The notes beneath the pieces were generated by a model that saw only the letters and a program-made list of their open reading frames with translations, was not told the DNA's origin and searched no databases. Shown here in pieces: positions 10,957 through 64,000 of a stretch of DNA of 64,000 nt. How positions within the stretch are numbered: the stretch's first letter is position 1; every line of letters begins with the position of its first letter. Position numbers and translations under genes: made by a program. The DNA comes from a virus. The stretch lies in IMG/VR virus record IMGVR_UViG_3300022744_000026, positions 14,098 through 78,097 of that record; one strand, 5' to 3'.

Positions 10957-10970
10957 CGTGACACCACCAT
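10957..10970 (+). promoter_or_regulatory. Putative late promoter CGTGAC-AC-CACCAT
   Basis: ATG 10977 follows 6 nt later. Confidence 0.75.
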
Positions 10971-10976
10971 TAACGC

Positions 10977-11639
10977 ATGGCGACAAAACACCCCCGCAGG
11001 GCCGAGGCTGAGGCCGCAATCCGAGTCCACCTGAGCACGCGCGGCAATGGTGACTGGGAGGCCGTGCTTACGCAATTTCCAGACGTGTCGGCGCCGAGCA
11101 TGTGGCGGTGGATCCGCGAGGTAAAGGCGGGCGCACCGGAGGGCGCGCAGCTCAAGACCGCCGTCAGCCGCATCCGCCGGTCGCTCAAGGACGACAAGGT
11201 GTATCGCACCGAGGAGGCCAGCCAGCAGGCCGTGCGGCACATCGCCGATCAACTGCCGGCGGCGCCGCGGCCGGAGTACATCGCCAGGACCGGGTCAGCC
11301 GGCCTGGAGAACATCGACTTCGTGCGCGAGATCCGGCACCTGTACTCCGACGCCCTGATGCTGCGCGCGTACTGCACAAAGGTCGACGCCGAGACCGGGC
11401 AGGAGAGCATCAAGCAGCCGATGCTGTTCGAAAAGCAGATCGCGCGGCGTGCCAGCCTGATCGAGACCAGCATCAAGACCGTGCAGGAGCTTTGGGACTT
11501 GCGCACGATGCAGGGGTTTTATCAGGCGATCATCGAGGAGATCGGCAAAGAGGCGCCCGATGTCCAGCACCGCATCATGGACAGGTTGCGGGCGCTGAAC
11601 AACGAGCGCGGCATGACGATGTTCACCACGGCGTTCTGA
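10977..11639 (+). CDS. terS: Terminase small subunit (putative)
   Basis: N-terminal HTH, helical body, immediately upstream of terL. Confidence 0.65.
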   Translation: MATKHPRRAEAEAAIRVHLSTRGNGDWEAVLTQFPDVSAPSMWRWIREVKAGAPEGAQLKTAVSRIRRSLKDDKVYRTEEASQQAVRHIADQLPAAPRPEYIARTGSAGLENIDFVREIRHLYSDALMLRAYCTKVDAETGQESIKQPMLFEKQIARRASLIETSIKTVQELWDLRTMQGFYQAIIEEIGKEAPDVQHRIMDRLRALNNERGMTMFTTAF

Positions 11640-11640
11640 C

Positions 11641-13737
11641 GTGCGCGGGGTTGTGCAGAGGCGTAGGGGCCTGCCGGACTACCGCAGCGGCCTGTCGAGC
11701 CTGATCTCGAAGCTGGAGGAGAAGACCGGCTATCGGGTGGCAAAGGTCGGCATCGAGGCGGGCGTGACGTTCCGCGACTGGTGCGAGGAGCTTGGCCGCA
11801 AGGGCATGAAAGTCGACGGAAAGCCGTTCAAGCTGGACGACCGCCCGGCCATGGCATGGATCTACGATCAAGTGCCCAGCACTGAGGATGAGGCCTACCG
11901 CCTGGTGCTGGTGCTGATGAAATGCGCGCAGGTGGGTTTTACGGTCATGGAGATGCTTGCGTGCATCTACCTGGGCCTGCGCTTCGGGCCGGCAATCGTC
12001 GGCATGTTCCTGCCGGACATGAACCTCGCCGGCCTGAAGTCGACCGAGCGGTTCATGCCCATCGTGCGCTCCACGCCGAGCGTGCACGAGCTGATGACTC
12101 AGGACGCGCCGGACGGCAGCGGGCGCAAGCAGGGCGAGGGCAACGTCAACCGCCGCCGCATTGGTGAAGCGCTGTTCGTGTTCAGTTGGACATCTGGCCG
12201 GGCCACCACCGAGTCTGTGCCCATGGACGTCCTGAGCTTCGATGAAGTGCAGGAAATGACGCTGGAGCAGATGGAGAAGACCATCGAGCGCCTGAGCGCC
12301 AGCCCGCTGCGTTTCGTGCTGATGGGGTCGACCGCCAACTGGCCTGATGCCGACATCCACCACTGGTACAAGCGCGGCAGTCGGCGGCGCTTCCATACCC
12401 GCTGCCGCACATGCGGTGTGGCTGAGCCCATCGATGAGTACTTTCCGCAGTGCTTCAAGTTCGATGAGGCCACGGGTGTGCATCGGTACACCTGCCGGGC
12501 AGGGCACGTGATCGATGACCCGCAGGACGGCGAGTGGATCGCCGAAAACCCGGATGCCGACCCGCCGGTGAATCTGGACATCCCCAAGAAAGACCGGCCG
12601 CTGCGGATCCGCAGCATCCACTTCCCGCAGATGCTGAGCCCGACGATCAGCCCGACTGAAATTTGGGACGCCTACCGGTTCGCGGAGTCGATGAAGAACT
12701 TCTTCAACCGCAAGTTGGGGAAGCCGTATCTGGATCCGAGCCAGGTTCCGGTGACGCTGGAGCACCTGCGCGAGGCCGAGCGCCAGGGCATCGCCATGGG
12801 CCTGCAGTGGGAGTCCCGCGGCAAGGGTTGCTTCATGGGCATCGACCAGATGGGCAACTTCAATGTCGTGGTGATCAAGCGTCGGCTGGACGATGGCCGG
12901 CAGGCGCTGGTGCACGCCGAGCTGGTCTACGACGCCGACCCTTTCCAGCGGTGCAGCGCGCTCATGGAGGCATTCGGCGTCTATGCGTGCGTGGTCGAAA
13001 TCAACCCGAACTACAACGACGCGAAGCGCTTCGCCAACCGCCACCCTGGTCGGGTGTTCATCTGCGACAGCTTCGGCAAGGTGGCGGAAGGCATGATCCA
13101 GTGGGGCGACGCCATGAAGCTGGACACCAGCGAAAGGCGCACCAGCGAGGATGCGCGCGACCGCTACACGCTGCGCATGGACCAGTTCAAGTGCATGCAG
13201 GTCAGCATGGCGCGGTTCACGCACACTGACCCACGCACCGGCGCGCCCGCCCCGCTGTGCCTGTTCCCGGACGCGCAGGGGCTGGTGCAGGATGTGGTCG
13301 AGTCAGGCGCCAGGCAGCAAAAGCCAGTCCTGCCGATCGCGTGGCACCACTTCACGAAGACCGCGCTGGTGTCCGAGAAGGACGACGAGACGAACAAGTA
13401 CAAGCGCGTCGTCAAGAAAATCGGCATCGACCCGCACTTCAGTTATGCGAACATGCTGTGCGATGTCGCATGGGCCCGCGCGCATGGGACGACGCTTTTC
13501 ATCATGCCCGAGGAGTCGTCCACCATGAGCGCGAAACTGGACAACGACATGGCGAGGCTCGACCTCTCCAAAGTCCCATCCGCCCACGCCGCCCGCGTCG
13601 TGGAGATCATGACCGCCCCGACCGTCACCGGCACCTGCGGCACCTGCACGGCCTACATGGACGGCCAGTGCACCGAGCGAGGCTTCAACGTGGCGGCGCG
13701 CGACACGGCGTGTGACCTGTACGCGGCTGAGGCGTGA
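11641..13737 (+). CDS. terL: Terminase large subunit (GpA-like)
   Basis: MKCAQVGFT, SFDEV, GSTA, CRTC Zn motif, NFFNRKLG and MGIDQ nuclease motif. Confidence 0.9.
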   Translation: MRGVVQRRRGLPDYRSGLSSLISKLEEKTGYRVAKVGIEAGVTFRDWCEELGRKGMKVDGKPFKLDDRPAMAWIYDQVPSTEDEAYRLVLVLMKCAQVGFTVMEMLACIYLGLRFGPAIVGMFLPDMNLAGLKSTERFMPIVRSTPSVHELMTQDAPDGSGRKQGEGNVNRRRIGEALFVFSWTSGRATTESVPMDVLSFDEVQEMTLEQMEKTIERLSASPLRFVLMGSTANWPDADIHHWYKRGSRRRFHTRCRTCGVAEPIDEYFPQCFKFDEATGVHRYTCRAGHVIDDPQDGEWIAENPDADPPVNLDIPKKDRPLRIRSIHFPQMLSPTISPTEIWDAYRFAESMKNFFNRKLGKPYLDPSQVPVTLEHLREAERQGIAMGLQWESRGKGCFMGIDQMGNFNVVVIKRRLDDGRQALVHAELVYDADPFQRCSALMEAFGVYACVVEINPNYNDAKRFANRHPGRVFICDSFGKVAEGMIQWGDAMKLDTSERRTSEDARDRYTLRMDQFKCMQVSMARFTHTDPRTGAPAPLCLFPDAQGLVQDVVESGARQQKPVLPIAWHHFTKTALVSEKDDETNKYKRVVKKIGIDPHFSYANMLCDVAWARAHGTTLFIMPEESSTMSAKLDNDMARLDLSKVPSAHAARVVEIMTAPTVTGTCGTCTAYMDGQCTERGFNVAARDTACDLYAAEA

Positions 13738-14105
13738 CCATGCGCATCCTAGTCACCGGAGGGCGCTCCTACGCTGACCGCGATGCCGTCTGGTCAGCGC
13801 TTGACCGTGTGCACGCCAAGCGCGGTCTGACCTGTGTCATCCATGGGGCAGCCACCGGCGCCGATGAGCACGCCAGGGCCTGGTGCATCGCTCGCCGCAT
13901 TCCCATGGAGGTCTACCCGGCCAACTGGCGCCCCGTGGTTGGCGGTGGCATCGACCGTAGCGCTGGGCCGCGGCGCAACGCTGACATGCTGGAGCGTGGG
14001 CGCCCTGACGGCGTGGTGGCCTTCCCAGGCGGCACAGGCACTGCCGACATGGTGCGTCGAGCCGAAGCCGCAGGCATCAAGGTGTGGCGCCCAACCGCGG
14101 CGTGA
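13734..14105 (+). CDS. SLOG/YspA-like (DUF2493) protein
   Basis: MRILVTGGR, VIHGAATGAD, AGPRRN and VAFPGGTGTADMV. Confidence 0.85.
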   Translation: MTMRILVTGGRSYADRDAVWSALDRVHAKRGLTCVIHGAATGADEHARAWCIARRIPMEVYPANWRPVVGGGIDRSAGPRRNADMLERGRPDGVVAFPGGTGTADMVRRAEAAGIKVWRPTAA

Positions 14106-14114
14106 CGGCATCAT
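14101..14114 (+). promoter_or_regulatory. Putative late promoter CGTGAC-GG-CATCAT
   Basis: ATG 14121 follows 6 nt later. Confidence 0.75.
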
Positions 14115-14120
14115 GCCCCC

Positions 14121-15755
14121 ATGGCTAACCTGACCCCCACCCCCGGCTGGGACAACGTCCCGCAGCATGAAATCAGCACCGTAGCCATCGGCGGGCCTGG
14201 CGGCACGGCGAATGCGCAGGCGCAGGCGTTGCTGAATCGGCTGGAGGCGCTGCGGGGGACTGCGGCGGGTCAGGGTGGGGCGCTGGTGGGATTGCAGGAT
14301 GCCCGGGGGTATTTTGCGACCGACAATGTTGAGGCGGCAACTCAGCTTCTCGGATCGCGCACATCTGCTATCGGCGTCAGCATCACTGATGCGGCGTACG
14401 GGGCTGTGTCTGGCGCCGACTGCACTGCGGCGATCATTGCTGCTGATGCCGCCGTGGCAGCCGCTGGCGGGGGTGTCGTGCTGATCCCGGCGGGGACCTG
14501 GAAGTACAACAGCACCATCTCAAGGTCGACCAATGTGACCTGGCGCGGGGTGTCGTCGCTGGCGTCAAAGCTGCAGTGCACGAATGGCACTGCGCAGATC
14601 ATCAACTCTGGTGGGCGCGGTGGCCTAGAAGACCTGTATATCGAAGGCCCTTATCTGACGCAGGCGACTCGTATCGCTGCGGCCTCTACGTCCATCGGCG
14701 TGGTCGATGGTGGTGCAACGATTTGGGTGCGCAATGTCCGTATCAAGTATTTCAAGAAGGGATATTCCAAAACCATTGGTTATTGGTGCGAGTATCACAA
14801 ACTGTGGCTGGAGGAAAACGGCACGGGTTTTAGTTGGGATAACACTGGCGCAGATTTTTGCAACCTGATTGCGTTCTACTCTTGCACGTTCCGGCAGAAT
14901 GACCGCAATGGTATTGCAAGCACAGCCGTCAATAACAACACCACCATCAATTACATTGGCTGTGACGTTGAGGCGAACTGCTCTGAAGACCCGGCCACAT
15001 ACCCGCAGATTGCGATTGGTTTCGCCCGCAATGTGAACTGGTTCGGAGGGTATGCAGAACCAGGAACGGTATCTCCAGCACCTGATTTTTGGGTGTTGTC
15101 AAATACATCGATCTGGAACATTACAGGGCTATACCTCGGTGGCGCAAGGAAGGCATTTACATCCAGCAGCAACGGTACTGGGACTGGGCGCATCGCCAAT
15201 GTTTATTTTGCTGGCGGCACTGCACTCATAACGTCGGCGGTCTACGATTTCCCGTCGTGCTTGAATATCACGGTTTATGACCGCAATACGCACACGGCGG
15301 CTATCACGCTGGACGGCGCAGGCTCGCAGCGCATCGCCAGCGGTGATCAGTTGGCCACGCGCACGGCTCCGGCTAGCTTCACGCCAGTGCTGTCCGGCAC
15401 CGGTACAGCCGGCACGTTTACTTATACGGTACAGGTCGCACGCAGTTCAAAAAACGGCAACATGCGCACGTATGCTGGACGGATCACTATTTCTGCCATT
15501 ACAGTAGCGCCGACAGGTAATATTCAGATCAGCCTGCCGTCCACCTGCATTAATGCTACCAATATCAGATATACCGGCGTACTGGATTGCTCAGGTGTCA
15601 CACTGAGCGGTGCAAATACGTATTTCTACGGCCGGATTGATCCGAACACCTCACAGATGACCCTATTCCAGGGCGGCTCGTCGTCCACGGCGCTGCAGGC
15701 TGCAAACATTACAGCCACCTCGCAGATCATCTGGTCGATTACGTACGAGGAGTGA
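14121..15755 (+). CDS. Tailspike/tail-fibre-like protein with a probable beta-helix (pectate-lyase-like) domain
   Basis: N-terminal MANL...GG.GG.AN.QAQAL.NR fibre anchor; YGA...D.TAAI..A...GGGVVLIPAGTW beta-helix cap; lower-GC body. Confidence 0.75.
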   Translation: MANLTPTPGWDNVPQHEISTVAIGGPGGTANAQAQALLNRLEALRGTAAGQGGALVGLQDARGYFATDNVEAATQLLGSRTSAIGVSITDAAYGAVSGADCTAAIIAADAAVAAAGGGVVLIPAGTWKYNSTISRSTNVTWRGVSSLASKLQCTNGTAQIINSGGRGGLEDLYIEGPYLTQATRIAAASTSIGVVDGGATIWVRNVRIKYFKKGYSKTIGYWCEYHKLWLEENGTGFSWDNTGADFCNLIAFYSCTFRQNDRNGIASTAVNNNTTINYIGCDVEANCSEDPATYPQIAIGFARNVNWFGGYAEPGTVSPAPDFWVLSNTSIWNITGLYLGGARKAFTSSSNGTGTGRIANVYFAGGTALITSAVYDFPSCLNITVYDRNTHTAAITLDGAGSQRIASGDQLATRTAPASFTPVLSGTGTAGTFTYTVQVARSSKNGNMRTYAGRITISAITVAPTGNIQISLPSTCINATNIRYTGVLDCSGVTLSGANTYFYGRIDPNTSQMTLFQGGSSSTALQAANITATSQIIWSITYEE

Positions 15756-15882
15756 TCATTGATGACGCACATACTCGACTGGCTCAAGCGATGGGCCGAC
15801 CTCACCATGGGGCGGCCGACTTCTTTCTGTCTCTCAGAGTGTGCGGCATGATCCCGTCGATCCGGCGCTAACCCACTCCCAT

Positions 15883-15896
15883 CGTGACGCTACCCT
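15883..15896 (+). promoter_or_regulatory. Putative late promoter CGTGAC-GC-TACCCT
   Basis: ATG 15903 follows 6 nt later. Confidence 0.75.
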
Positions 15897-15902
15897 CCCC
15901 CA

Positions 15903-17645
15903 ATGGACACCGCACGCCACGTCGCCTTCAACCCTGCCGCTCCTGACGACGAGCGGCAGGACGCCCTGAGCGAGCTGACGAAGGCGCACATGCCGTCAGC
16001 GGCGCCAAGCTCCAACATGCTGGAGCTGGTGCAGTACGTGCGCGAGCAGTACGAGGCCGACAGCATGGAGAAGGCCATGCATGCGCAGAACGTGGTGCCT
16101 TTCCCCAGCATGGCGGCGCGCGAGCACAAGCCCGGCCAGCAGTCTGTGTGGCTGGATGACGTGCAACTGAACATCCAGGGCAACTGGTACGAGCGGCCGA
16201 CCGGGTTCAGCTTCGACGCCATGCGCGCCATGGTGCACGGCACGCCGTTGCTGAATGCGATCATCATGACGCGCCAGCGCCAGGTGGCGCGGTTCTGCCG
16301 TCAGAACGTGGTGGGCCGCGGGGAGGGCTTTCGCATCGCGCTGAAAGACCCCAAGGCCAACCCCGACAGCAGCCAGCAGGCAGCCATCGGTCTGATGCAG
16401 GACTTCTTCCAGAATTGCGGCTGGGAGCGCAAGGCGCGTCAGCGCATGCGGCTGCGGCGCGACAGCTTTGCGGGATTCATGACGAAATCCCTGCGCGAGA
16501 CCCTGACGCTCGACAGCATGCCGATCGAGACCGAATGGAAGCGCGACAAGCGCCTGGGACTCGACGGCATCTATGCCGTCGACGGCAGCACCATTCGCCT
16601 GTGCACAGAGCAGGGCTACGACGGCGACGACGAGATTTTCGCGCTGCAGGTGGTGCAGGGGCAGGTGCGCAGCGCGTACACCTACGACGACCTGATCTAT
16701 GTGCCGCGAAACCTGCGCGCCGACGTCACTGCTGGCGGCTACGGGCTGAGCGAGACGGAGATCCTCATCAAGGTGGTGACGGGCTTCCTGAACGCCTTCA
16801 CCTACAACACGGGGTACTTCGACAACAACAAGATCCCCAAGGGGATGCTGCACCTGACCGGCAACTACAGCGAGCAGGACATCAACGCCTTCAAGAGGCA
16901 ATGGAACGCCATGGTGAAGGGCGTGAACAACGCCTGGACGCTGCCGGTGATGGTGAGCAAGGATCAGGAGTCGAAGGCTGCCTTCGAGAACTTCGGCGCC
17001 GAGCAGAACGAAATCATGTTCGCCAAGTGGATGACCTTCCTGGCGAGCCTGGCGTGCGCAATCTACGCCATCGACCCGACCGAGATCAACTTCGAAGCGT
17101 TCACTGCCGGCACGTCGAGCCTCAGCGGCAGCGACACCGAGGAGAAGATCGCCCACAGCACCGACAAGGGCCTGCGGCCGATCCTGAGCTACTACGAAAG
17201 CCTGTTCACCGACTACGTGGTGAGCGAGTGGGGCGACGAGTACGTCTTCCGCTGGACCGGCCTGGACGACGAGGCGCCCGAGCAGATTTTCGAGCGCCAG
17301 AAGCTGGTGATGACCGTCAACGAGATGCGCGCGCTCGACAACATGGAGTCGATCGATGACCCATGGGGCGACTCGCCGATCAACCCGTCACTGCAGTCGG
17401 CCTGGCAGATGAGCCAGCAGCAGGGGCAGGAGGACTACGGCCAGCCAGGGGCGCCGCAGCCTGGCGCCGAGCAGCAGGGCGACGAGGACGGCCAGGACTT
17501 CGGCCAACCGCAGGCCGGCGACTTCGGGCAGCCGAAGCCTGACCAGCCCGAGCAGGCCGCGCCTGCCGAGCAGCCGCAGGACGCCGACACCGTCGCCAAG
17601 GCATTCGGCCTGCCGGCGCTGCCGATCTACGGGATCAACGAGTGA
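15903..17645 (+). CDS. Portal protein
   Basis: AVDGSTIR, GYGLSETE, YFDNNKIPKGML, KGLRPIL and MTVNEMR portal motifs. Confidence 0.9.
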   Translation: MDTARHVAFNPAAPDDERQDALSELTKAHMPSAAPSSNMLELVQYVREQYEADSMEKAMHAQNVVPFPSMAAREHKPGQQSVWLDDVQLNIQGNWYERPTGFSFDAMRAMVHGTPLLNAIIMTRQRQVARFCRQNVVGRGEGFRIALKDPKANPDSSQQAAIGLMQDFFQNCGWERKARQRMRLRRDSFAGFMTKSLRETLTLDSMPIETEWKRDKRLGLDGIYAVDGSTIRLCTEQGYDGDDEIFALQVVQGQVRSAYTYDDLIYVPRNLRADVTAGGYGLSETEILIKVVTGFLNAFTYNTGYFDNNKIPKGMLHLTGNYSEQDINAFKRQWNAMVKGVNNAWTLPVMVSKDQESKAAFENFGAEQNEIMFAKWMTFLASLACAIYAIDPTEINFEAFTAGTSSLSGSDTEEKIAHSTDKGLRPILSYYESLFTDYVVSEWGDEYVFRWTGLDDEAPEQIFERQKLVMTVNEMRALDNMESIDDPWGDSPINPSLQSAWQMSQQQGQEDYGQPGAPQPGAEQQGDEDGQDFGQPQAGDFGQPKPDQPEQAAPAEQPQDADTVAKAFGLPALPIYGINE

Positions 17646-18370
17646 AGACCGCCGCGCAGCAGCAGGCCCAGCCGATCCCCGGCTGCGCGCCTGGCGACGA
17701 GGTGTGGCTCAAGCACCCGGACGGGCCCGTGACCGCGAAAGTCCTGGCGCACGGGCAGCACGGTCTGACCGTCGACGTCGGCGGCAAGCAGCACCGCGTG
17801 AAGTGGGACAAGGTGCACGGGCACAAGCGGCGCACGGCCATCAACATGCAGGTCGAGGACGAGGGCGAGGATGGAATGGTGGTGCGCGACCAGCTCGGCC
17901 GGCGGCATTTCGTGGCAGTGCCTCCCGAGGCACGCGAGGAGCGGATGGTGGTGAAATCACATGGTGGCGGCGCCAGGCTGCTGGTGTTCGCAAAGGCGCT
18001 GAAGCAGCCCGAGAACGAGCAAGGCGGCTGGACCGAGGCGGGCAAGGCGCCGGCAAGCAAGGGCCATCACGTGGCGTTCCAGCACGGCGAGCACGCCGGC
18101 CGCGGCGAGGTGCAGGCGGCGGGCCGGGATGGCGTGACCGTGAAGGACGGCGCTGGCGCCAGCCATCAGGTGCCGCACAAGGCTATCACGCACCGGTGGG
18201 AAGGCAAAGAGGCGCCGACCGCTGGCCCTGGTGAGCCGGCCAGCCCGTCAGACGAGCTGCGCGAGTTCCTGGCCGGGCTGCTGAAAGACGCGCCGGACGA
18301 CGTGCAAAAGTGGATCGGCCAGTACGTGCAGAGCCAGTCGAGCGAAGAAAAAGCCGATCGGCCTGGTTGA
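17642..18370 (+). CDS. Hypothetical head-associated protein with SH3-like repeats
   Basis: GTGA overlap with the portal gene; two V.A.G..G.TV units; LLVFAKA tag. Confidence 0.7.
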   Translation: MKTAAQQQAQPIPGCAPGDEVWLKHPDGPVTAKVLAHGQHGLTVDVGGKQHRVKWDKVHGHKRRTAINMQVEDEGEDGMVVRDQLGRRHFVAVPPEAREERMVVKSHGGGARLLVFAKALKQPENEQGGWTEAGKAPASKGHHVAFQHGEHAGRGEVQAAGRDGVTVKDGAGASHQVPHKAITHRWEGKEAPTAGPGEPASPSDELREFLAGLLKDAPDDVQKWIGQYVQSQSSEEKADRPG

Positions 18371-18420
18371 AAGAGGTTAGAGTAGTGTCTCTGCTAAACC
18401 TCAACTCACCAGCAACTCAC

Positions 18421-18597
18421 ATGGCAACCACTTTCACCATCGGCCAAAAGGTCACCTACAAGCTGCACACCGGCCGCACCGGTTCGGGCGTCATCGACAG
18501 CATCAGCAACGGTGCGCGCGGCGCGTTCTACGCTGTCAAGCACGACGACGGTACGATCCTGAAGCTGCGTGCTGCGCAGATCACGTCGGCGGCCTGA
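18421..18597 (+). CDS. Small SH3/Tudor-like protein
   Basis: FTIGQKVTY...GSGVI...FYAVK pattern; good codon usage. Confidence 0.6.
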   Translation: MATTFTIGQKVTYKLHTGRTGSGVIDSISNGARGAFYAVKHDDGTILKLRAAQITSAA

Positions 18598-18615
18598 GCA
18601 GGCAGCGAGCGAGCC

Positions 18616-18858
18616 ATGATCATTCGCACTTCGCGGCACAGGTTCAATCTGCCGGTTTCACTGTGGGTCAGCCTCGCAGTAGCAGTCGTGGTGTCTGTGC
18701 TGGCCTTCTGGCTACCCATCCATGGGCGCGGCGATGTGTGGTGCAGCATCTGCGGATGCATTGCATGGCTCTGGTGCTTCGCTGAGCGCGACAAGCGCGC
18801 GGCTACCGTCTACGAACCGATGATCCAGCGCATCGATACGTTTGACCACCGATGGTGA
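18616..18858 (+). CDS. Small membrane protein
   Basis: Two hydrophobic segments. Confidence 0.45.
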   Translation: MIIRTSRHRFNLPVSLWVSLAVAVVVSVLAFWLPIHGRGDVWCSICGCIAWLWCFAERDKRAATVYEPMIQRIDTFDHRW

Positions 18859-18879
18859 GCAAAGCGCCCGGCACCCGCC

Positions 18880-19890
18880 GGGCCATCAAGTCAGCCGGCG
18901 TATGCCCGTTGACTTGATGGCCCCACATCCAAGGCTTGGCCCCTTGGAGTTCCCAGCGATGGGGAGATACACGAGACACGCTGCCTTATGCGAGTGTGGG
19001 GCCGTCAGCTATCACAGATGCGCCAGCCGGAAAGCCCGGCAACTGCGCGACAAACAGTCCCAAGCCTGGGGCATCTGTGATGGTTGCACGCAGAAATGCG
19101 CACATAGACCGACGAGGGAAGGCGTCTGCTGGACGACGCCGGAAGACGATACGCGGATCATCACCGCCCCTGCGACTCGGGTCTCAGTCTTCACCGACCA
19201 TCACCAAATTCCGGACCGCGGCCCACAGCGCGATGGGAATCAAAACAGGCTTTCTGTGGGCGAGCTGAGGCGCGCGAGATAAGCGCCACCGTGAGGCGGA
19301 CCGTTAAGTCGTCAACACCTGGGGCAGCCCGGGGCGCGCAGGGGTAGTGCCTGACAAACCACCCGGGGGAAGGGCCCGGGGCCACCGGATTGCGAGCAGC
19401 ACTGGCGACTGCAGCAGACTGTAAATCTGTAGCCCCTAGGGGCAACGGGGTTCGACTCCCTGGCAATCCACCACTGACCATCATCACAGCGGGTGAGCGC
19501 CTGCTGCGATGATGGCCGGCGCAGTCTTGGCCTCTGCGCATCGAGCCGCACACCCCGTGCGCGCCCGCGGTAAGCACCCTGCCTCATGGGATCGGTCGTC
19601 AACAGCCGTTGTAACGGATGCCGCTGGGCCTACGGCCGGAGTGCATCGCCGCAGTCTACGTAAGCGGCACAATCAACAAGCGGTGGGTAATCGGCCTAGA
19701 GTCGTCATCATCCCCCACTGGCCGGGAAACCGGCTGACGCGAATAGCCGATCTGCGGCGGTCTCGCGCCACAAGGTCGCCGCAGACTTCAGCGCCACCCC
19801 CGGGTGGCGTTGTCGTTTGTAACGTGCATCCTCCTCAGCGCCCCGTGGCGCCGTTGCCTACCCCCGCGCCTAGGCGGGTCACAAGCCCGG
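18880..19890 (+). ncRNA. Putative cluster of structured non-coding RNA elements around tRNA-Tyr
   Basis: Series of long inverted repeats; no convincing coding ORF. Confidence 0.45.
19387..19473 (+). tRNA. tRNA-Tyr (GTA)
   Basis: Acceptor GGATTGC/GCAATCC-A-CCA; anticodon arm GCAGA-CTGTAAA-TCTGT; long variable arm; GGTTCGACTCC T arm. Confidence 0.9.
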
Positions 19891-19941
19891 CCTGATAAAT
19901 TAAATTTGCGTCATCAACTACCGCGCTTCGGCGCTAATGTC

Positions 19942-22998: not shown

Positions 22999-23186
22999 CC
23001 ACCGACACCTTCCTCCACCAAGCCGAGTCCTTCCTCACCCGCCACGGCCGCCGCGCCTGGTGGCAGGTGATGGGTGACCACGGTGTCGATACGCTAGCTG
23101 GTGCGATCGAGAAGCGGGACAGGATCGCGGAGACGATGCGCGATATCGACGCCATCACCAGCGGGCTTCCCGGCCCCGAGGCGTGA
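22995..23186 (+). CDS. Hypothetical protein
   Basis: ATGA coupling. Confidence 0.5.
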   Translation: MTTDTFLHQAESFLTRHGRRAWWQVMGDHGVDTLAGAIEKRDRIAETMRDIDAITSGLPGPEA

Positions 23187-23195
23187 CCCCACACT
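23182..23195 (+). promoter_or_regulatory. Putative late promoter CGTGAC-CC-CACACT
   Basis: ATG 23202 follows 6 nt later. Confidence 0.75.
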
Positions 23196-23201
23196 CCCCG
23201 C

Positions 23202-24341
23202 ATGGCCCTACTTTTCGACCTCGCAGCCCTATCCGCACGCCAGACCGACGCGGTCCTGCATGACATTTTCTGCAAGGCCCACGGGCACGAGGGCGACGGC
23301 GATGGGATATGGGCACCGGTCGACAACCCGTTTCTGGAGCGGATCGTTCAGCTATTCAGCGACCGTGGCCTGATGCGGATCGGAAGGCTGCGCGACGAGC
23401 TGCAGGCGTGGCTGGCTGGGGACCGGCACCAGGCCGGCGAGGCGAAGCCGCGCCCGCCGACAGATCGCGTCGTCTGGACGGATCAGGAGCTTGGCGTGGT
23501 GCGCCTGTACCTGCGCTCTCTGCCGCCAGACGCATGGACGATTGACGATCACATGCTGCTGGTGGACTTCCTGCACCAGCGCTACATGAGCCCGGACGAC
23601 CTGCGCACGGAGGCCGATTGGCTGGCGAGCCGGTCCGTCCTCATGGGGCGCGTGCAGTCGCAGATGGACACGCTGACGACCAAGCAGGCTGACGCCGTAC
23701 TGGCGGCAGAGTCCGTCCCGGCATGGCCTGAACTCGCCGGGCAGGTGCTGTCATTCGCCCGCAACCGCTGCGCCGATGCCGTCACCAGGGTGAGCGAAGG
23801 CATGCGGCTGCAACTGCGCCAGACGATCGCTCAGGAGGTGGAGCAGGCGCACCTGGCGGGGCGGCCGGTGTGGTCGACGGCGCTTCAGACGAGGCTGCAG
23901 GATGAGTACATGGTGCAGAACAGGGACTGGCGGCGCGTGGCGCTCACCGAGTCAGCCGAGGCGCTGAATCAGGGGTTCGTGGCCTGCCAGGAGCCGGGCC
24001 AGAAGCTCAAGCGGGTGGAGCAGTACAAGGGCGTCTGCGCGTGGTGCGCGAAGATCGACGGGCGGGTGATGGAGGTGGTTGACCCGAGTGAGCCGGAGAA
24101 GGATGGGGAGAGGCAAATTTGGGTCGGGAAAACGAACGTCGGCCGAAGCGTGGCGCCTCGCAAGCGCGTGGGTGATCTGCTGGTGGAGCGTGAGCCGGAT
24201 GAGCTATACCATATCGCTTCCGGCGCCCAACATCCAAATTGCAGAGGCAGATGGGTTCCCGTCATCACCGACAAGCCCGGTGACGACCCTCAGTTCGGAG
24301 ACTGGTTGCGGGCTACTTTGCAGGGCGTGACGGCAGCATAG
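23202..24341 (+). CDS. Head morphogenesis protein (Mu gpF/SPP1 gp7-like)
   Basis: RDWRRVALTE, CAWC and HPNCRGRW. Confidence 0.8.
   Translation: MALLFDLAALSARQTDAVLHDIFCKAHGHEGDGDGIWAPVDNPFLERIVQLFSDRGLMRIGRLRDELQAWLAGDRHQAGEAKPRPPTDRVVWTDQELGVVRLYLRSLPPDAWTIDDHMLLVDFLHQRYMSPDDLRTEADWLASRSVLMGRVQSQMDTLTTKQADAVLAAESVPAWPELAGQVLSFARNRCADAVTRVSEGMRLQLRQTIAQEVEQAHLAGRPVWSTALQTRLQDEYMVQNRDWRRVALTESAEALNQGFVACQEPGQKLKRVEQYKGVCAWCAKIDGRVMEVVDPSEPEKDGERQIWVGKTNVGRSVAPRKRVGDLLVEREPDELYHIASGAQHPNCRGRWVPVITDKPGDDPQFGDWLRATLQGVTAA
24326..24339 (+). promoter_or_regulatory. Putative late promoter CGTGAC-GG-CAGCAT
   Basis: ATG 24346 follows 6 nt later. Confidence 0.75.
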
Positions 24342-24345
24342 GGCT

Positions 24346-25740: not shown

Positions 25741-25943
25741 CGCAGGGCTGGCACCCGCGCGAAGTCACCCAAGCCTGGGCCGTCATCTGGCCGGACGGGC
25801 GAATGCTTGCAGACACCAGCTTCAACGACGAGCAGCACGCTTGGCAGGTCTGCCTGGGTTGGCCGGATGCCGACGAGATCGAAGCGGCCAAGCGCAGGGG
25901 CGCAAGAGCAGTTCGAGTGACCGTCGTCGCGCCGGCATCGTGA
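25737..25943 (+). CDS. Hypothetical protein
   Basis: ATGA overlap with the upstream gene. Confidence 0.55.
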   Translation: MTQGWHPREVTQAWAVIWPDGRMLADTSFNDEQHAWQVCLGWPDADEIEAAKRRGARAVRVTVVAPAS

Positions 25944-25952
25944 CCCCACACT
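25939..25952 (+). promoter_or_regulatory. Putative late promoter CGTGAC-CC-CACACT (leadered)
   Basis: 40 nt before ATG 25979, with a GAGG ribosome-binding site between. Confidence 0.7.
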
Positions 25953-25978
25953 AGGCCCCGCACCAAGCGAGGCCACGC

Positions 25979-30982: not shown

Positions 30983-31187
30983 CAGCCTCCAGCGCCGCCA
31001 TCATCCGCTCGAACTCTGCCACCAGCTCCAGCACTGCGCTGGCGCGCAGGCTGACCATCGCCGAGCCGCGCGCAGCGGCCCTGGCGGTGGATCTGCTGCG
31101 ACCCTGAAGCAGGCCCACGTCGAAGGCGCTCTCGATCTCCGCGCGGGCCTTGGCGCGCATGCGGATCAGGTCGGCGCGGGATGTCAT
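30900..31187 (-). CDS. Hypothetical protein
   Basis: ATGA-coupled to the upstream DfrB-like gene; its 3' end overlaps the convergent gene. Confidence 0.45.
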
Positions 31188-31510: not shown

Positions 31511-31523
31511 GGGGATCTGCTGG

Positions 31524-34485: not shown

Positions 34486-34499
34486 CGTGACCCCATCAT
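34486..34499 (+). promoter_or_regulatory. Putative late promoter CGTGAC-CC-CATCAT
   Basis: ATG 34506 follows 6 nt later. Confidence 0.75.
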
Positions 34500-34505
34500 G
34501 GCGCG

Positions 34506-39566: not shown

Positions 39567-39580
39567 CGTGACCGCACATT
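39567..39580 (+). promoter_or_regulatory. Putative late promoter CGTGAC-CG-CACATT
   Basis: ATG 39588 follows 7 nt later. Confidence 0.7.
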
Positions 39581-39587
39581 TGCGGTC

Positions 39588-40511
39588 ATGCACGATGCAT
39601 CCAGCCTGCCCGACTTCATCAGCATCTCGGGCTTGTTCAAGGCGATGCCCCAGTCCGAGGGTGGGCAGCGCTTCGTGTACTTCGAGGCATCGAACGAAGG
39701 TCTGGACCAGCAGAACGAGATCGTGAGTGCGAAAGCGCTGGGTGAGTCGAAAGACTACTACCTCCGCTACGGCAACATTGACATAGATCATTTGACCCTG
39801 ACCGGCCGCCCGAACCCGGCGAAGGGCTATCCCGGCATCCCGGACTACATGAGCTACGAGATTGGCGTGCCCGTTGAGGTGCGCCAGTCCGGCAAGACGA
39901 CGTTCGTCAAGAGCCAGATCAAGTCCGGCGAGGGCCCTGCGGCCGAGAAGGCGAACCAGTTCTGGAACAGCCTGATGACGAACCCGCCGACCCGCTGGTA
40001 TCCCAGTGTCGGCGGCGCCATCGACCCCGAAGGGCGGATTGTCGAACTGGACCCGGCCACCGGCGCCAAGAAGGTGATCATCACCAAGGTGCGCTGGACG
40101 AACATCGGCGTGAGCCTCACGCCCGTCAACCAGCATGTCCCCGGCTGCGCCACGGTGCCGATCGGCGCCTTCGCCAAGTGCCACACGCCTGGTGGCGGAT
40201 TAGACCTGACCAAGGCCCTGACCGCCGGCTACGGCTCCGATTCCGCCACCCTCACCGGCGGCGCAGCCCTGCGCATGCAGTCGCTCGACGGCGCCGTGCG
40301 CGACACCACCGTGCCCACGCCCCAATACTGGACATGGCGCGACAAGATGGCCGGCGCCATTCGTGACGGCAGCATTCGCATACCGAACGCTGAGGGCTTG
40401 ATTGCCCACAGCGCCACTACCTACGGCATGCCCCTGTCCGATGCCGCGGAATACGTGGAGCGCTTTTTGCGCGACCTGAAACACGGACTATCTCGACGGA
40501 GAAACGCATGA
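39588..40511 (+). CDS. Prohead protease
   Basis: EAS.E..DQQNE, GNIDIDH, PSVGG and PVN motifs; position before scaffold and capsid genes. Confidence 0.8.
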   Translation: MHDASSLPDFISISGLFKAMPQSEGGQRFVYFEASNEGLDQQNEIVSAKALGESKDYYLRYGNIDIDHLTLTGRPNPAKGYPGIPDYMSYEIGVPVEVRQSGKTTFVKSQIKSGEGPAAEKANQFWNSLMTNPPTRWYPSVGGAIDPEGRIVELDPATGAKKVIITKVRWTNIGVSLTPVNQHVPGCATVPIGAFAKCHTPGGGLDLTKALTAGYGSDSATLTGGAALRMQSLDGAVRDTTVPTPQYWTWRDKMAGAIRDGSIRIPNAEGLIAHSATTYGMPLSDAAEYVERFLRDLKHGLSRRRNA

Positions 40512-43032: not shown

Positions 43033-43046
43033 CGTGACCCGACACT
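43033..43046 (+). promoter_or_regulatory. Putative late promoter CGTGAC-CC-GACACT (leadered)
   Basis: 40 nt before ATG 43073, with an AAAGGAG ribosome-binding site. Confidence 0.65.
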
Positions 43047-43072
43047 AAGGTCTACCGACCAAAGGAGCCGCA

Positions 43073-49480: not shown

Positions 49481-49487
49481 GCGTAGC

Positions 49488-49501
49488 ATCCTGCCGTCAC
49501 G
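49488..49501 (-). promoter_or_regulatory. Putative late promoter CGTGAC-GG-CAGGAT (minus strand)
   Basis: ATG at 49480 follows 7 nt later; back-to-back with the copy at 49508. Confidence 0.75.
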
Positions 49502-49507
49502 CCTCGT

Positions 49508-49521
49508 CGTGACCGCACCAT
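49508..49521 (+). promoter_or_regulatory. Putative late promoter CGTGAC-CG-CACCAT
   Basis: ATG 49528 follows 6 nt later. Confidence 0.75.
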
Positions 49522-49527
49522 TCACTC

Positions 49528-52765: not shown

Positions 52766-52996
52766 ATGAGCAAGTCCAACAAAGACAAGATCAGCTCGAC
52801 GGGCTTCGTCGGCATGACATCGACCGACTCCGTCAACATCTTCGAGATGGCGACCATCCTGAAGATCACGCCGTCTGCCGTGCGCCAGCGCGTGGCCGCC
52901 GGCACGCTGCCGCAGCCGCGCTACGATGGCCGCGGCGAGCGCACGTGGCTCAAGTCCGACCTCACCACGGCTGGCATCACTGCCGTGGTGCCGTGA
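52766..52996 (+). CDS. Small HTH (AlpA/Xis-like) protein
   Basis: EMATILKITPSAVRQRVAAGTLPQP......W. Confidence 0.65.
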   Translation: MSKSNKDKISSTGFVGMTSTDSVNIFEMATILKITPSAVRQRVAAGTLPQPRYDGRGERTWLKSDLTTAGITAVVP

Positions 52997-53005
52997 CGGC
53001 ACACT
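52992..53005 (+). promoter_or_regulatory. Putative late promoter CGTGAC-GG-CACACT (leadered)
   Basis: Upstream of the chaperone gene; followed by hairpin CGCCGCCC-act-GGGCGGCG and a GGAG site. Confidence 0.7.
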
Positions 53006-53058
53006 GACCCTACCTGCAAACAGCGCCGCCCACTGGGCGGCGTTCTCATGGAGCCTAC

Positions 53059-58724: not shown

Positions 58725-58738
58725 CGTGACGCCACACT
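58725..58738 (+). promoter_or_regulatory. Putative late promoter CGTGAC-GC-CACACT
   Basis: ATG 58745 follows 6 nt later. Confidence 0.75.
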
Positions 58739-58744
58739 TGGCGC

Positions 58745-63272: not shown

Positions 63273-63275
63273 CAT

Positions 63276-63289
63276 CGTGACCGCACGAT
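63276..63289 (+). promoter_or_regulatory. Putative late promoter CGTGAC-CG-CACGAT
   Basis: ATG 63296 follows 6 nt later. Confidence 0.75.
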
Positions 63290-63295
63290 AGCAAA

Positions 63296-64000
63296 ATGCC
63301 CACATTCCAGACCATCCACACGAATTACGGGCTGTCGCGCATCACGGCAGCGCTATCGTCGGGCGTGCCGATCAACCTGACGCAGTTGGCTGTCGGCGAT
63401 GGTGGCGGCTCGTCAACGACGCCGGCCCCGACGCAAACCGGACTGGTGCACGAGGTCTGGCGCGGCACGGTCAACCGGATCGTCACTGACCCGGCGCTGC
63501 CTGGGCGGATCTTCGTGGAGGCCGTGATCCCGTTCGATGCCGGCGGCTGGACAATCCGCGAGTTCGGCATCTTCGATGATGCCGGGCAGTTGTTCGTGGT
63601 GGGCAATTTCCCGGCGACGTACAAGTCGGTCCCCAGCGACGGAGCCAGCACGGACGTGATCCTGCGCGTCGAGATCGTCATGTCGAACACCGCGGTGATC
63701 ACGCTGGTGGTCGACCCCTCGGTGACGATCGCCACGCAGTCGTGGGTGCTGACGAACGTGACCCGGTCGACCCTGGCGCCTGGCGGCACCACGGGGCAGG
63801 TCTGGACGAAGCTGTCCAATGTCAGCGGCGACGCCGACTGGCGCTCGCCCGGGTCGTCCACGATCATCGTGGATGCGGTGGAGGAGCCGGTGACGGCCCT
63901 TGCCGCCGGGCAGGCGACCATCAACCTGACGACGTGCACCACGCTCGGTCTGGTGGTGTTCATCGAGGGCGTGCGGATCCCCAAGGCCACGGGTGTCGAC
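63296..64000 (+). CDS. Tail fibre protein, N-terminal part (runs off the window)
   Basis: MPTFQTIHTNYG...LAVGDGGG...LVHEVWR...GGWTIREFGIFD...GNFP..YK, the P2 gpH-type N-terminus. Confidence 0.88.
   Translation, partial: MPTFQTIHTNYGLSRITAALSSGVPINLTQLAVGDGGGSSTTPAPTQTGLVHEVWRGTVNRIVTDPALPGRIFVEAVIPFDAGGWTIREFGIFDDAGQLFVVGNFPATYKSVPSDGASTDVILRVEIVMSNTAVITLVVDPSVTIATQSWVLTNVTRSTLAPGGTTGQVWTKLSNVSGDADWRSPGSSTIIVDAVEEPVTALAAGQATINLTTCTTLGLVVFIEGVRIPKATGVD

What the first reader, a model, noticed from the sequence alone, without database searches (positions are those of the whole stretch)
10957..63298. Fourteen-copy late promoter CGTGAC-N2-(C/T/G)ANNNT that mostly drives leaderless mRNAs
Seen: CGTGAC starts at 10957, 14101, 15883, 23182, 24326, 25939, 34486, 39567, 43033, 49501 (minus), 49508, 52992, 58725 and 63276. 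Each copy is followed after 2 nt by a -10-like hexamer (CACCAT, CATCAT, TACCCT, CACACT, CAGCAT, CACATT, GACACT, CAGGAT, CACGAT). In 9 copies the ATG starts exactly 20 nt after the C, and in 2 copies 21 nt. That is 6-7 nt after the hexamer, at the expected +1, with no Shine-Dalgarno. The other three copies precede genes that do have a ribosome-binding site. All targets are packaging, head, tail or head-cargo genes. Inference: a phage-specific late promoter in which a fixed box abutting a degenerate -10 replaces the -35 element, read by a phage activator or modified sigma, with largely leaderless translation. I do not recognise this promoter class.
Basis: partly seen in the sequence, partly recalled or inferred. 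Interest (0 to 1): 0.9.

Follow-up and report, generated by a model that had tools for sequence, protein, structure and literature searches.

The report
Phage late promoter giving leaderless mRNAs
A 16-base signal (GTCGTGAC, two bases, then a weak -10 box) sits in front of the packaging, head, tail and cargo genes of this ~92-kb uncultured phage; it is very probably a phage-specific late promoter with no -35 box that usually starts the message at the ATG, it is shared by a large family of phages of Proteobacteria, and the protein that reads it is unknown.

Summary
All 14 listed copies exist, and there is a 15th at 40362. The composite motif CGTGAC-N2-[C/T/G]ANNNT occurs 15 times against 1.45 in shuffles. 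With an ATG 20-21 nt after the C it occurs 11 times against 0.15.

The same signal, G-22 T C G T G A C-15, N2, C-12 A-11 c a A/C T-7, N5, C-1 A+1TG, with nothing conserved at -35, lies before orthologous late genes in seven cultured relatives. Their hosts are Pseudomonas, Bordetella, Aeromonas, Escherichia and Yersinia. It also gave 143 hits, against 0 for the reversed control, in 44 related IMG/VR records.

The most likely reading is a late promoter in which host RNA polymerase recognises a minimal -10 (A-11, T-7) and a phage factor reads the box. Promoter-proximal genes are leaderless. Operon-internal genes such as capsid, sheath and tube carry Shine-Dalgarno sites.

The closest known system is the P1 late promoter, read by Lpa. 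It shares a GTGAC core, but the box lies 4 bp further from the -10, and no Lpa homologue is present here. Thermus phage Lalka27a is the closest leaderless analogue with mapped starts.

No sigma factor was found; the search for a T7-type polymerase was uninformative. A conserved, translationally coupled pair of zinc proteins (7884-8423 and 8420-8686) is the best candidate reader, by inference only. No transcription start was measured. This scan has already noted the same motif in at least five other genomes of the family.

The parts
10957..10976 (+). Late promoter copy. Predicted start is the ATG at 10977 of a 220-aa gene just upstream of the large terminase (11641-13737).
   Evidence: TerL Pfam hit
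14101..14120 (+). Late promoter copy, leaderless at ATG 14121 (544-aa gene, low GC, no homologue in relatives). The TGA inside the box is the stop codon of the gene at 13734-14105.
15883..15902 (+). Late promoter copy, leaderless at ATG 15903 (portal).
23182..23201 (+). Late promoter copy, leaderless at ATG 23202 (379-aa conserved head-region gene). The box TGA is the stop codon of 22995-23186.
24326..24345 (+). Late promoter copy, leaderless at ATG 24346 (Acb1 / ADP-ribosyltransferase cargo protein).
25939..25958 (+). Late promoter copy with a leader of about 20 nt and a GAGG site; the gene is 25979-30982 (1667-aa polyvalent protein with an LPD1 domain).
34486..34505 (+). Late promoter copy, leaderless at ATG 34506 (1509-aa polyvalent helicase protein).
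39567..39587 (+). Late promoter copy, ATG 21 nt after the C (39588, prohead protease homologue).
40362..40381 (+). It lies inside the protease gene. The predicted start is about 40382, ahead of the scaffold (40508) and major capsid (41177) genes.
   Evidence: metatranscriptome contigs from two studies begin at 40390 and 40396 (weak hint)
43033..43052 (+). Late promoter copy with a leader of about 20 nt and an AAGGAG site; the gene starts at 43073.
49481..49501 (-). Minus-strand late promoter copy, leaderless at the ATG at 49480 (gene 48641-49480, conserved in all relatives).
49508..49527 (+). Late promoter copy back to back with the minus-strand copy; leaderless at ATG 49528 (280-aa adaptor-like gene, then sheath and tube).
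52992..53011 (+). Late promoter copy with a leader of about 47 nt containing a hairpin and a GGAG site; the gene starts at 53059 (tail chaperone and tape-measure unit). The box TGA is the stop codon of 52766-52996.
58725..58744 (+). Late promoter copy, leaderless at ATG 58745 (tail tube initiator / baseplate).
63276..63295 (+). Late promoter copy, leaderless at ATG 63296 (gene runs off the window).
7884..8423 (+). Candidate reader, part A. A 179-aa cysteine-rich protein with two predicted zinc sites. It is the first gene of the rightward operon that leads into the late genes and is conserved in every member of the clade. It matched no Pfam or PHROG family, and no PDB structure matched it clearly.
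   Evidence: inference only
8420..8686 (+). Candidate reader, part B. An 88-aa zinc-ribbon protein whose GTG start overlaps the stop codon of part A (GTGA), which implies translational coupling. It is conserved in all five relatives compared.
   Evidence: inference only

Best explanation
The motif is a phage-specific late promoter about 22 bp long. A minimal -10 hexamer (C/T/G-A-N-N-A/C-T) keeps only the two bases that sigma-70-type factors flip out, A-11 and T-7. It is too weak to work alone and has no -35 partner. An 8-bp box, GTCGTGAC at -22 to -15, two bases upstream of the hexamer, supplies the missing affinity. The box is most likely read by a phage-encoded protein that binds it and the host RNA polymerase holoenzyme. 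Late genes therefore switch on only after that protein has been made. Transcription starts 7 nt after the hexamer (C-1, A+1). In 11 of 15 copies that base is the A of the start codon, so the first gene of each late unit is translated from a leaderless mRNA. The genes behind it (scaffold, capsid, sheath, tube, tape measure) use ordinary Shine-Dalgarno sites. Shown here: the motif, its statistics, its position and orientation, the split in Shine-Dalgarno use, and conservation across the clade. Inferred: that it is a promoter, where the start lies, that a phage factor is needed, and that the factor is the conserved zinc-protein pair at 7884-8686 (about 0.35 for that last step).
For: 1. Enrichment: 15 sites against 1.45 in shuffles, and 11 against 0.15 with the ATG. 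The ATG-linked form is enriched 7- to 80-fold in each of seven genomes.
2. Spacing: the distance from box to next ATG peaks sharply at 20 nt (35 sites) and 21 nt (8 sites) out of 128.
3. Logo from 27 sites in six phages: G-22, T-21, an invariant CGTGA, C-15, invariant A-11 and T-7, C at -1 in 20 of 27, and no information at -35.
4. Start codons: 41 of 43 predicted leaderless starts are ATG.
5. Divergent pair: the 47-bp region between the divergent genes 48641-49480 and 49528-50370 holds only two back-to-back copies. The same pair is seen in Dolphis, PHB04, Touem01 and several IMG/VR records, with variable spacing between the boxes.
6. Translation signals: promoter-proximal genes lack GGAG/GAGG, while internal genes have it at -8 to -11.
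7. Clade-wide presence: the motif occurs in Dolphis, PHB04, ST4, ECML-606-1, fHe-Yen8-01 and Touem01 with 0 reversed-control hits. There are 143 hits against 0 control in 44 IMG/VR records that carry the 179-aa protein, almost all on one strand per record.
8. No own transcription machinery detected: no Sigma70_r2 hit, and no sigma factor or polymerase among the Pfam and PHROG hits of the early and cargo genes.
9. Experimental analogue: in Thermus phage Lalka27a, whose portal, capsid, sheath and cargo genes are homologous, late promoters with only a -10 box have starts mapped 6 nt downstream and give leaderless mRNAs (bioRxiv 10.64898/2026.04.20.719267).
10. Precedent for a box close to the -10 read by a phage activator: P1 late promoters and Lpa.
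Against: No transcription start, timing or expression data exist for this phage or any cultured member of its clade. The only RNA evidence is a few low-depth metatranscriptome contigs, which cannot show starts. No reader protein is identified. The zinc-protein pair has no detectable similarity to any transcription factor, and its presence coincides with the whole clade, so co-occurrence carries no independent weight. Two complete 53-56-kb IMG/VR records carry the 179-aa protein but gave no hit to the strict leaderless pattern. Efficient translation of leaderless mRNAs is not the rule in Proteobacteria. In the enterobacterial members most copies do carry leaders.
Confidence: 0.75

Rival explanations
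1. A phage-encoded, highly diverged sigma-like protein or a new polymerase replaces host sigma-70 and reads the whole 16-bp signal itself. T4 gp55 does this with TATAAATA, and the SPO1 sigma factors do likewise. In this reading there is no activator helping host sigma-70.
For: The signal is one compact bipartite unit with rigid 2-bp spacing. The structural module is distantly related to SPO1-like phages, which use their own sigma factors. Several conserved early proteins have no assigned function.
Against: No Sigma70_r2 match in this genome or four relatives. No sigma family appears among the Pfam and PHROG hits. The retained bases A-11 and T-7 and the 7-nt distance to the start are exactly those used by host sigma-70.
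Confidence: 0.12
2. Host RNA polymerase reads the signal unaided. The phage only shuts off -35-dependent promoters late in infection, so these -35-independent promoters win. Thermus phage P23-45 gp39 is recalled to act in this way (from memory, not checked here).
For: The hexamer keeps the sigma-70 key bases. The motif is conserved across hosts whose RNA polymerases are themselves conserved.
Against: The hexamers match TATAAT at only 3-4 of 6 positions, with C at -12. There is no TG at -15/-14 and no -35. Such sites should be very weak for unaided holoenzyme. An invariant 8-bp box with no known contact in holoenzyme is hard to explain. In P1 the related box needs Lpa.
Confidence: 0.08
3. The motif acts in RNA rather than DNA. 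It would be a processing or translation signal, for example a site where a nuclease trims long transcripts to the AUG.
For: The fixed distance to the AUG would also fit an RNA signal.
Against: The divergent gene pair at 49481-49527 needs two promoters, and nothing else is there. The conserved positions are those of a -10 element with C-1/A+1. Four copies have leaders of 20-126 nt, so the distance to the AUG is not obligatory.
Confidence: 0.03
4. GTCGTG is the -10 element of an ECF-type sigma factor, and transcription starts near A-11. The mRNAs would then have leaders of 10-11 nt without a Shine-Dalgarno site.
For: ECF -10 elements often contain GTC or CGT (from memory, not tested).
Against: ECF promoters depend on a GGAAC-like -35, and nothing is conserved 16-17 bp upstream of the box. 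No sigma gene was found. This reading does not explain the invariant T-7 or the C-1/A+1 preference.
Confidence: 0.02

Closest known systems
Bacteriophage P1 late promoters (LPpac, LPs, LPsit and others), activated by the phage protein Lpa (gp10) with host SspA
   Same: Many late promoters are spread over a ~94-kb myophage genome. Each has a -10 hexamer, no -35, and a short conserved box close upstream that a phage-encoded activator reads. The P1 box contains the same GTGAC core: the P1 record annotates ATGTGACTT as the '-22 region' of LPpac, and AAGTGACT-type boxes precede TANNNT at five more sites.
   Different: In P1 the box is a 9-bp inverted repeat with 6 bp between GTGAC and the hexamer. 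Here the box is the asymmetric GTCGTGAC with 2 bp between, so it lies 4 bp closer. The P1 copies seen have leaders; LPpac lies about 35 nt before pacA. The Lpa family (PF25716) matches P1 at 1.9e-58 but not this genome, Dolphis, PHB04 or ECML-606-1. The zinc proteins show no similarity to Lpa. Only ban-, ssb- and rdgC-like replication genes are shared with P1.
Late promoters of Thermus phage Lalka27a (bioRxiv 10.64898/2026.04.20.719267); the same preprint reports a similar leaderless pattern for phage YS40
   Same: The phage has homologous portal, protease, capsid, sheath, tube and polyvalent cargo genes. It has sixteen late promoters with only a -10-type hexamer plus one upstream conserved position. 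Starts are mapped 6 nt downstream, and most transcripts are leaderless. It has a divergent late promoter pair, no phage sigma factor or polymerase, and the authors infer an unknown phage factor.
   Different: The hexamer is TAGGGT. The upstream element is a C at -25, usually within GAC at -27 to -25, not GTCGTGAC at -22 to -15. Leaderless mRNAs are common in the Deinococcus-Thermus host (PMC12340547) but not in Proteobacteria. Lalka27a has no homologue of the 179-aa zinc protein.
Unexplained phage-specific promoter motifs of Pseudomonas phages 14-1 and YuA (PMC10914365)
   Same: The motifs are mapped at real transcription starts, do not resemble sigma-70 promoters, are silent in E. coli reporters, and the authors suggest they may need additional phage-encoded transcription factors.
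   Different: The sequence is different (a CTGGG core about 5 bp from the start in 14-1), the phages are unrelated, and no leaderless architecture is reported.
T4 late promoters (TATAAATA, read by gp55/gp33 with the sliding clamp); from established knowledge, not tested here
   Same: Late promoters consisting only of an element in the -10 region, with no -35, read through phage proteins on the host core enzyme.
   Different: The element is a different, AT-rich 8-mer with no separate upstream box. No gp55-like sigma was detected here. T4 late mRNAs have leaders.

Membership tests
P1 Lpa-dependent late promoters | -10 hexamer with no -35 element | tested here: met
   The logo of 27 sites has invariant A-11 and T-7 and no information from -45 to -30.
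P1 Lpa-dependent late promoters | Conserved 9-bp inverted repeat (AAGTGACTT type) centred near -22, with 6 bp between GTGAC and the hexamer | tested here: not met
   P1 has GTGAC-N6-TANNNT at six sites. Here the arrangement is GTCGTGAC-N2-hexamer, the box is not palindromic, and it lies 4 bp closer. Only the GTGAC core is shared.
P1 Lpa-dependent late promoters | The phage encodes an Lpa homologue (Pfam PF25716) | tested here: not met
   PF25716 matches P1 at 1.9e-58 as a positive control. It gives no match at E<=10 in this genome (85% complete), Dolphis, PHB04 or ECML-606-1. Searching with the Lpa protein itself also finds nothing.
P1 Lpa-dependent late promoters | Dependence on host SspA as co-activator | not testable with these tools
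   This needs genetics or biochemistry.
Extended -10 sigma-70 promoters | TG at -15/-14 directly upstream of the hexamer | tested here: not met
   -15 is C in 20 of 27 sites, and T at -15 followed by G at -14 is not the consensus. The conserved GTG lies at -19 to -17.
Leaderless, -10-only late promoters of Thermus phages (Lalka27a type) | Late-gene promoters with a -10 element only, start 6-7 nt downstream coinciding with the start codon | tested here: inconclusive
   The geometry is met: the ATG lies 6-7 nt after the hexamer in 43 of 128 sites, and C-1/A+1 is preferred. No start was measured for this clade.
Leaderless, -10-only late promoters of Thermus phages (Lalka27a type) | TAGGGT hexamer with a conserved C at -25 | tested here: not met
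   The hexamer here is CAcAAT-like and the upstream element is GTCGTGAC at -22 to -15.
ECF sigma promoters | GGAAC-like -35 element 16-17 bp upstream of a GTC/CGT -10, and a phage or host ECF sigma | tested here: not met
   Nothing is conserved upstream of -22. No Sigma70_r2 hit in five genomes.
T7-like single-subunit RNA polymerase promoters | The phage encodes a T7-type RNA polymerase (PF00940) | tested here: inconclusive
   There were no hits, but the control genomes do not contain the family either, so the search was uninformative. No large early protein is left unassigned: the 950-aa, 533-aa and 440-aa proteins have helicase or ATPase hits.
T4 late promoters (gp55/gp33) | TATAAATA at -10 and a gp55-like sigma | tested here: not met
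   The hexamers are GC-rich with C at -12. No sigma region 2 match was found, although a very diverged gp55-like protein cannot be excluded.

The most novel reading that the evidence does not exclude
A translationally coupled pair of small zinc proteins with no clear structural match (179 aa and 88 aa, 7884-8686) is a new kind of promoter-specificity factor. It would replace -35 recognition by reading an 8-bp box directly next to a minimal -10 on host sigma-70 holoenzyme. It would work unchanged in beta- and gamma-proteobacteria. The phage clade would use the resulting leaderless starts to set low translation of low-copy virion proteins (portal, protease, terminase partner, adaptor, baseplate hub, cargo) ahead of Shine-Dalgarno-led high-copy proteins in the same operons.
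Probability: 0.3. Interest if true: 0.8.

Novelty: new variant of a known kind. Interest (0 to 1): 0.6.

Why it matters
1. It gives a testable transcription map for a large, almost unstudied clade of ~90-kb myophages. The clade has ten cultured records on five or more host genera, including animal and plant pathogens' phages, and dozens of metagenomic genomes, some of them proviruses.

2. It points to an unidentified factor that retargets host RNA polymerase to a box 2 bp from the -10 element. Holoenzyme normally occupies that position, so the mechanism should differ from MotA/AsiA, Ogr, Mor/C and, in geometry, from P1 Lpa.

3. Systematic leaderless late mRNAs in phages of Proteobacteria are unexpected. 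The contrast between high-GC members (mostly leaderless) and enterobacterial members (mostly with leaders) offers a natural experiment on leaderless translation.

4. In practice, gene callers miss these starts. Two Dolphis genes are annotated 60-160 nt too short. The 22-bp element could also serve as a compact, orthogonal, late-only promoter for phage engineering.

Tried and rejected
- Lpa homology. A PF25716 search, an Lpa protein search, BLASTP and a profile comparison against the zinc proteins were all negative, with P1 as a positive control.
- Phage sigma factor or polymerase. Sigma70_r2 found none. PF00940 was uninformative because its controls were silent. Pfam and PHROG scans of about 45 early, middle and cargo proteins found none.
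- Fold of the 179-aa protein. The AlphaFold2 model is good (pLDDT 84), but neither Foldseek against the PDB (best E 0.59) nor VIA-align (best Z 2.7) gave a match. The ESM Atlas gave only unnamed viral clusters (one search failed).
- The 88-aa protein gave only generic sub-threshold zinc-ribbon hits.
- RNA evidence. Two metatranscriptomes hold a few low-depth contigs over 40390-42400, 43068-43271 and 49763-49986. They cannot show starts or strands, and uncovered parts mean nothing.
- Covariation between the zinc protein and the box. The protein is present in exactly the clade that has the box, including Mecenats66, where TCGTGAT boxes remain before the adaptor and protease genes. No independent contrast was obtained.
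- Shared regulator with Lalka27a. Only structural, cargo and SSB genes are shared.
- The consensus sigma-70 and terminator scan of 1-20000 was uninformative. A second call failed on a size slip.
- Literature. No paper in the held library describes this motif or the transcription of this clade. The original P1 promoter papers are not held, so P1 was read from its GenBank record.

Full report
**What the window is.** The window is bases 14098-78097 of a 78-kb IMG/VR virus record judged 85% complete. It has 65.5% G+C. DNA of this phage occurs in freshwater and wastewater metagenomes. Its terminase, portal, protease, capsid, sheath, tube and baseplate genes are 40-65% identical in protein to those of a group of ~90-95-kb myophages. 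These are Bordetella phage PHB04 (the closest), Pseudomonas phages Dolphis, Jeremy and Touem01, Aeromonas phage ST4, Escherichia phage ECML-606-1, Enterobacter phage phiT5282EW, Yersinia phage fHe-Yen8-01 and, more distantly, Morganella phage Mecenats66. Further out come Thermus phages (Lalka, phiMa) and SPO1-like phages. The left part of the record holds replication and recombination genes: RdgC, helicases, a PD-(D/E)XK nuclease, SSB and resolvases. From window position ~10950 rightwards nearly everything is on the + strand and is virion-related.

**The observation.** All 14 listed copies are present. CGTGAC alone is not over-represented: 41 copies against 59 expected. What is over-represented is the composite.
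- CGTGAC-N2-[C/T/G]ANNNT occurs 15 times against 1.45 in 200 dinucleotide shuffles (maximum 5).
- With a start codon 5-7 nt after the hexamer it occurs 11 times against 0.15 (maximum 2).
- The distances are as stated: 20 nt from the C to the ATG in nine copies and 21 nt in two. Three copies have leaders with GAGG, AAGGAG or GGAG in the usual place.
- All copies lie in the late half of the genome and point the same way as the gene that follows.

**Anatomy.** I pooled the 27 copies with 20-nt spacing from six genomes. The logo is G-22 (21/27), T-21 (21/27), invariant C G T G A at -20 to -16, C-15 (20/27), two weakly G/C positions, C-12 (17/27), invariant A-11, c, a, A/C at -8, invariant T-7, five unconstrained bases, C-1 (20/27) and A+1 T G. 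These 27 sites were selected with a pattern that fixes CGTGA, A-11, T-7 and the ATG, so the invariance at those positions follows from the selection. G-22, T-21, C-15, C-12, C-1 and the empty -35 region are the independent observations. No position between -65 and -23 carries information.
- The retained bases of the hexamer, A-11 and T-7, are the two that sigma-70-family factors capture in pockets (established knowledge).
- The 7-nt distance to a purine preceded by a pyrimidine is the normal start-site geometry.
- The hexamers match TATAAT at only 3-4 positions, lack T-12 and lack a TG extension. With no -35 they should be very poor promoters for unaided holoenzyme.
- The box is asymmetric. 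At the divergent pair, the distance between the two boxes varies among phages (6, 19 and 21 bp), so each box belongs to its own promoter and the two do not form one dimer site.

**Why it is a promoter.**
1. The genes 48641-49480 (-) and 49528-50370 (+) diverge from a 47-bp gap that contains nothing but two back-to-back copies. Both genes need a promoter there. The same arrangement recurs in Dolphis, PHB04, Touem01 and several metagenomic relatives.
2. The distance from the box to the next ATG has a sharp mode across seven genomes: 35 sites at 20 nt and 8 at 21 nt out of 128. Of 43 such starts, 41 are ATG and 32 have C at -1. This fits the known preference of leaderless translation for a 5' AUG.
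3. In this genome the first gene after each copy has no Shine-Dalgarno sequence. Operon-internal genes do: capsid has AGGAGG, and scaffold, sheath, tube and tape-measure genes have GGAG or GAGG at -8 to -11.
4. GenBank annotators independently chose the same ATGs for the Dolphis portal, gp6, gp8 and gp14 genes. Where they did not (gp15 and gp25), homology to this phage begins at the leaderless ATG upstream of the annotated start.
5. In Thermus phage Lalka27a, which shares the structural and cargo modules, late promoters of the same architecture have transcription starts mapped 6 nt after the hexamer and give leaderless mRNAs.
6. The only direct RNA data here are weak. Contigs from two metatranscriptome studies cover the scaffold and capsid genes. 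Both begin at 40390-40396, which is 8-14 nt after the start predicted for the unlisted internal copy at 40362. Contigs cannot prove a start.

**Conservation.** The pattern CGTGA-N4-A-N3-T-N6-RTG occurs 6, 2, 8, 4 and 2 times in Dolphis, ECML-606-1, PHB04, ST4 and fHe-Yen8-01, with no hit to the reversed control. Touem01 has seven leaderless copies. The ATG-linked form is enriched 7- to 80-fold over shuffles in each genome. In 44 IMG/VR records chosen only because they encode the 179-aa zinc protein, the strict leaderless pattern occurs 143 times against 0 for the control. It is almost always on a single strand per record, and it is present in 12 of 14 records that are at least 90% complete. 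The high-GC members (this phage, PHB04, Dolphis, ST4, Touem01) are mostly leaderless. The enterobacterial members mostly insert a 10-25-nt leader with a Shine-Dalgarno site after the same promoter and keep only one leaderless copy each, at the adaptor gene. The same signal in phages of beta- and gamma-proteobacteria, over a G+C range of 47-66%, argues that it is a phage trait read by a phage product and is not a host promoter class.

**What reads it.** No sigma region 2 match exists in this genome or four relatives. The T7-type polymerase search was uninformative, but no large early protein is left unassigned. Transcription therefore most likely depends on the host enzyme. Only three small potential regulators are conserved throughout the clade.
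- An 81-aa HTH protein heads the replication operon, a Cro-like position.
- Two adjacent genes sit at the head of the rightward operon that runs into the late genes.
  - One is a 179-aa cysteine-rich protein at 7884-8423. Its invariant cysteines indicate two zinc sites.
  - The other is an 88-aa zinc ribbon at 8420-8686. Its GTG start overlaps the first gene's stop codon.

The 179-aa protein has homologues in all ten cultured records of the clade and nowhere else in 50,697 phage records. It matches no Pfam or PHROG family. It folds confidently (pLDDT 84), yet no PDB structure matches it clearly. I rate this pair as the best candidate (about 0.35). The evidence is only position, conservation and metal-binding character, and its distribution coincides with the clade.

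**Comparison with known systems.** Notes from earlier follow-ups of this scan on other genomes of the clade named P1 late promoters as the nearest relative. I tested that.
[quoted passage not shown] Lpa works with host SspA.
- The P1 record annotates LPpac as a '-22 region' ATGTGACTT, four bases, then TACCCT. A scan finds AAGTGACT-type boxes 6 bp before TANNNT at five more sites.
- The two systems therefore share the logic and even the GTGAC core. In P1, however, the box is palindromic and lies 4 bp further from the hexamer, and the copies seen have leaders.
- The Lpa family is absent here and in three complete relatives, with P1 as a positive control.
- The zinc proteins are unrelated to Lpa. 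Only ban-, ssb- and rdgC-like genes link the two genomes.

This signal works like a P1 late promoter but is not a member of that family. Lalka27a is the nearest example for leaderless output. There the hexamer is TAGGGT, the upstream element is usually GAC at -27 to -25, and the zinc protein is absent. Extended -10, ECF, T4-late and T7-type promoters each fail a defining feature or remain untestable (see the membership table).

**A functional reading (inference).** The leaderless genes are mostly low-copy or unassigned ones: the terminase partner, portal, protease, adaptor, baseplate hub and cargo proteins. The abundant proteins lie behind them with strong ribosome-binding sites. A leaderless first cistron may therefore set a low translation rate within a strongly transcribed late operon. 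In four copies the TGA inside the box is the stop codon of the preceding gene (14103, 23184, 25941, 52994), which shows how tightly promoter and coding sequence are packed.

**Verdict.** The promoter class is a new variant of a known kind: an activator-dependent phage late promoter without a -35 box. It has an unusual box position, an unknown reader and an unusual leaderless output for phages of Proteobacteria. I found no description of it in the held literature. It has been noted several times by this scan on other genomes of the same clade. Confidence that it is a late promoter is about 0.85, that most copies give leaderless mRNAs about 0.75, that a phage factor is required about 0.75, and that the factor is the zinc pair about 0.35.

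Noticed in passing
window 10917-10956: Directly upstream of the first late promoter there is a TTGACA followed by three direct repeats of TTGATAG(A). The last repeat abuts the CGTGAC box. This may be a regulator or packaging-protein site at the head of the terminase operon.
   Followed up: no
window 14103, 23184, 25941, 52994: In four promoter copies the TGA inside the CGTGAC box is the stop codon of the preceding gene, so promoter and coding sequence overlap.
   Followed up: yes
window 40362-40400: An unlisted promoter copy lies inside the protease gene, ahead of the scaffold and capsid genes. RNA contigs from two metatranscriptome studies begin 8-14 nt after its predicted start.
   Followed up: partly
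L009 (Dolphis MT711888.1) 14320 and 23688: The annotated starts of Dolphis gp15 (14482) and gp25 (23748) lie about 160 and 60 nt downstream of leaderless ATGs where homology to this phage already begins. Gene callers appear to miss leaderless starts in this clade.
   Followed up: partly
Lalka27a (L120-L123), about 20 TAGGGT sites: Most Lalka27a late promoters carry GAC at -27 to -25. That is the same trinucleotide that ends the box here (-17 to -15), but one helical turn further upstream. It could be coincidence or a distant relationship between the two systems.
   Followed up: partly
window 14121-15755: A 544-aa gene with visibly lower G+C (about 59%) has no Pfam match and no homologue in any relative. 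It sits between the terminase and portal genes under its own leaderless late promoter and looks like an acquired moron. Relatives carry other inserts at this spot (tRNAs, holin, recombinase).
   Followed up: partly
window 24346-39035: Three large late genes look like head-packaged polyvalent cargo: an Acb1 (anti-CBASS) domain fused to an ADP-ribosyltransferase domain (24346-25740), a 1667-aa protein with an LPD1 domain, and a 1509-aa helicase-containing protein that is 36% identical to a Lalka27a protein.
   Followed up: partly
window 7500-7850: An AT-rich ~350-bp region between the leftward early genes and the zinc-protein operon contains a 15-bp-stem palindrome (7625-7657, CATTCATTCATT...) and the only sigma-70-like hexamer pairs found in the first 20 kb.
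   Followed up: no
genome 8824-10227 (L010), 112-1056 (L010), 11832-12302 (L010): A DnaB-like helicase is 42% identical to the P1 sequence at 66427-67824; from memory, not checked in the record, this is P1 Ban. An RdgC-like protein and SSB also have their best cross-phage matches in P1, although the structural genes are unrelated to P1.
   Followed up: partly
IMG/VR records behind L057 and L103 (G011, G038): Two complete but much smaller (53-56 kb) viral genomes encode a homologue of the 179-aa zinc protein yet gave no hit to the strict leaderless promoter pattern. They are a useful contrast for testing whether the protein and the box go together.
   Followed up: no
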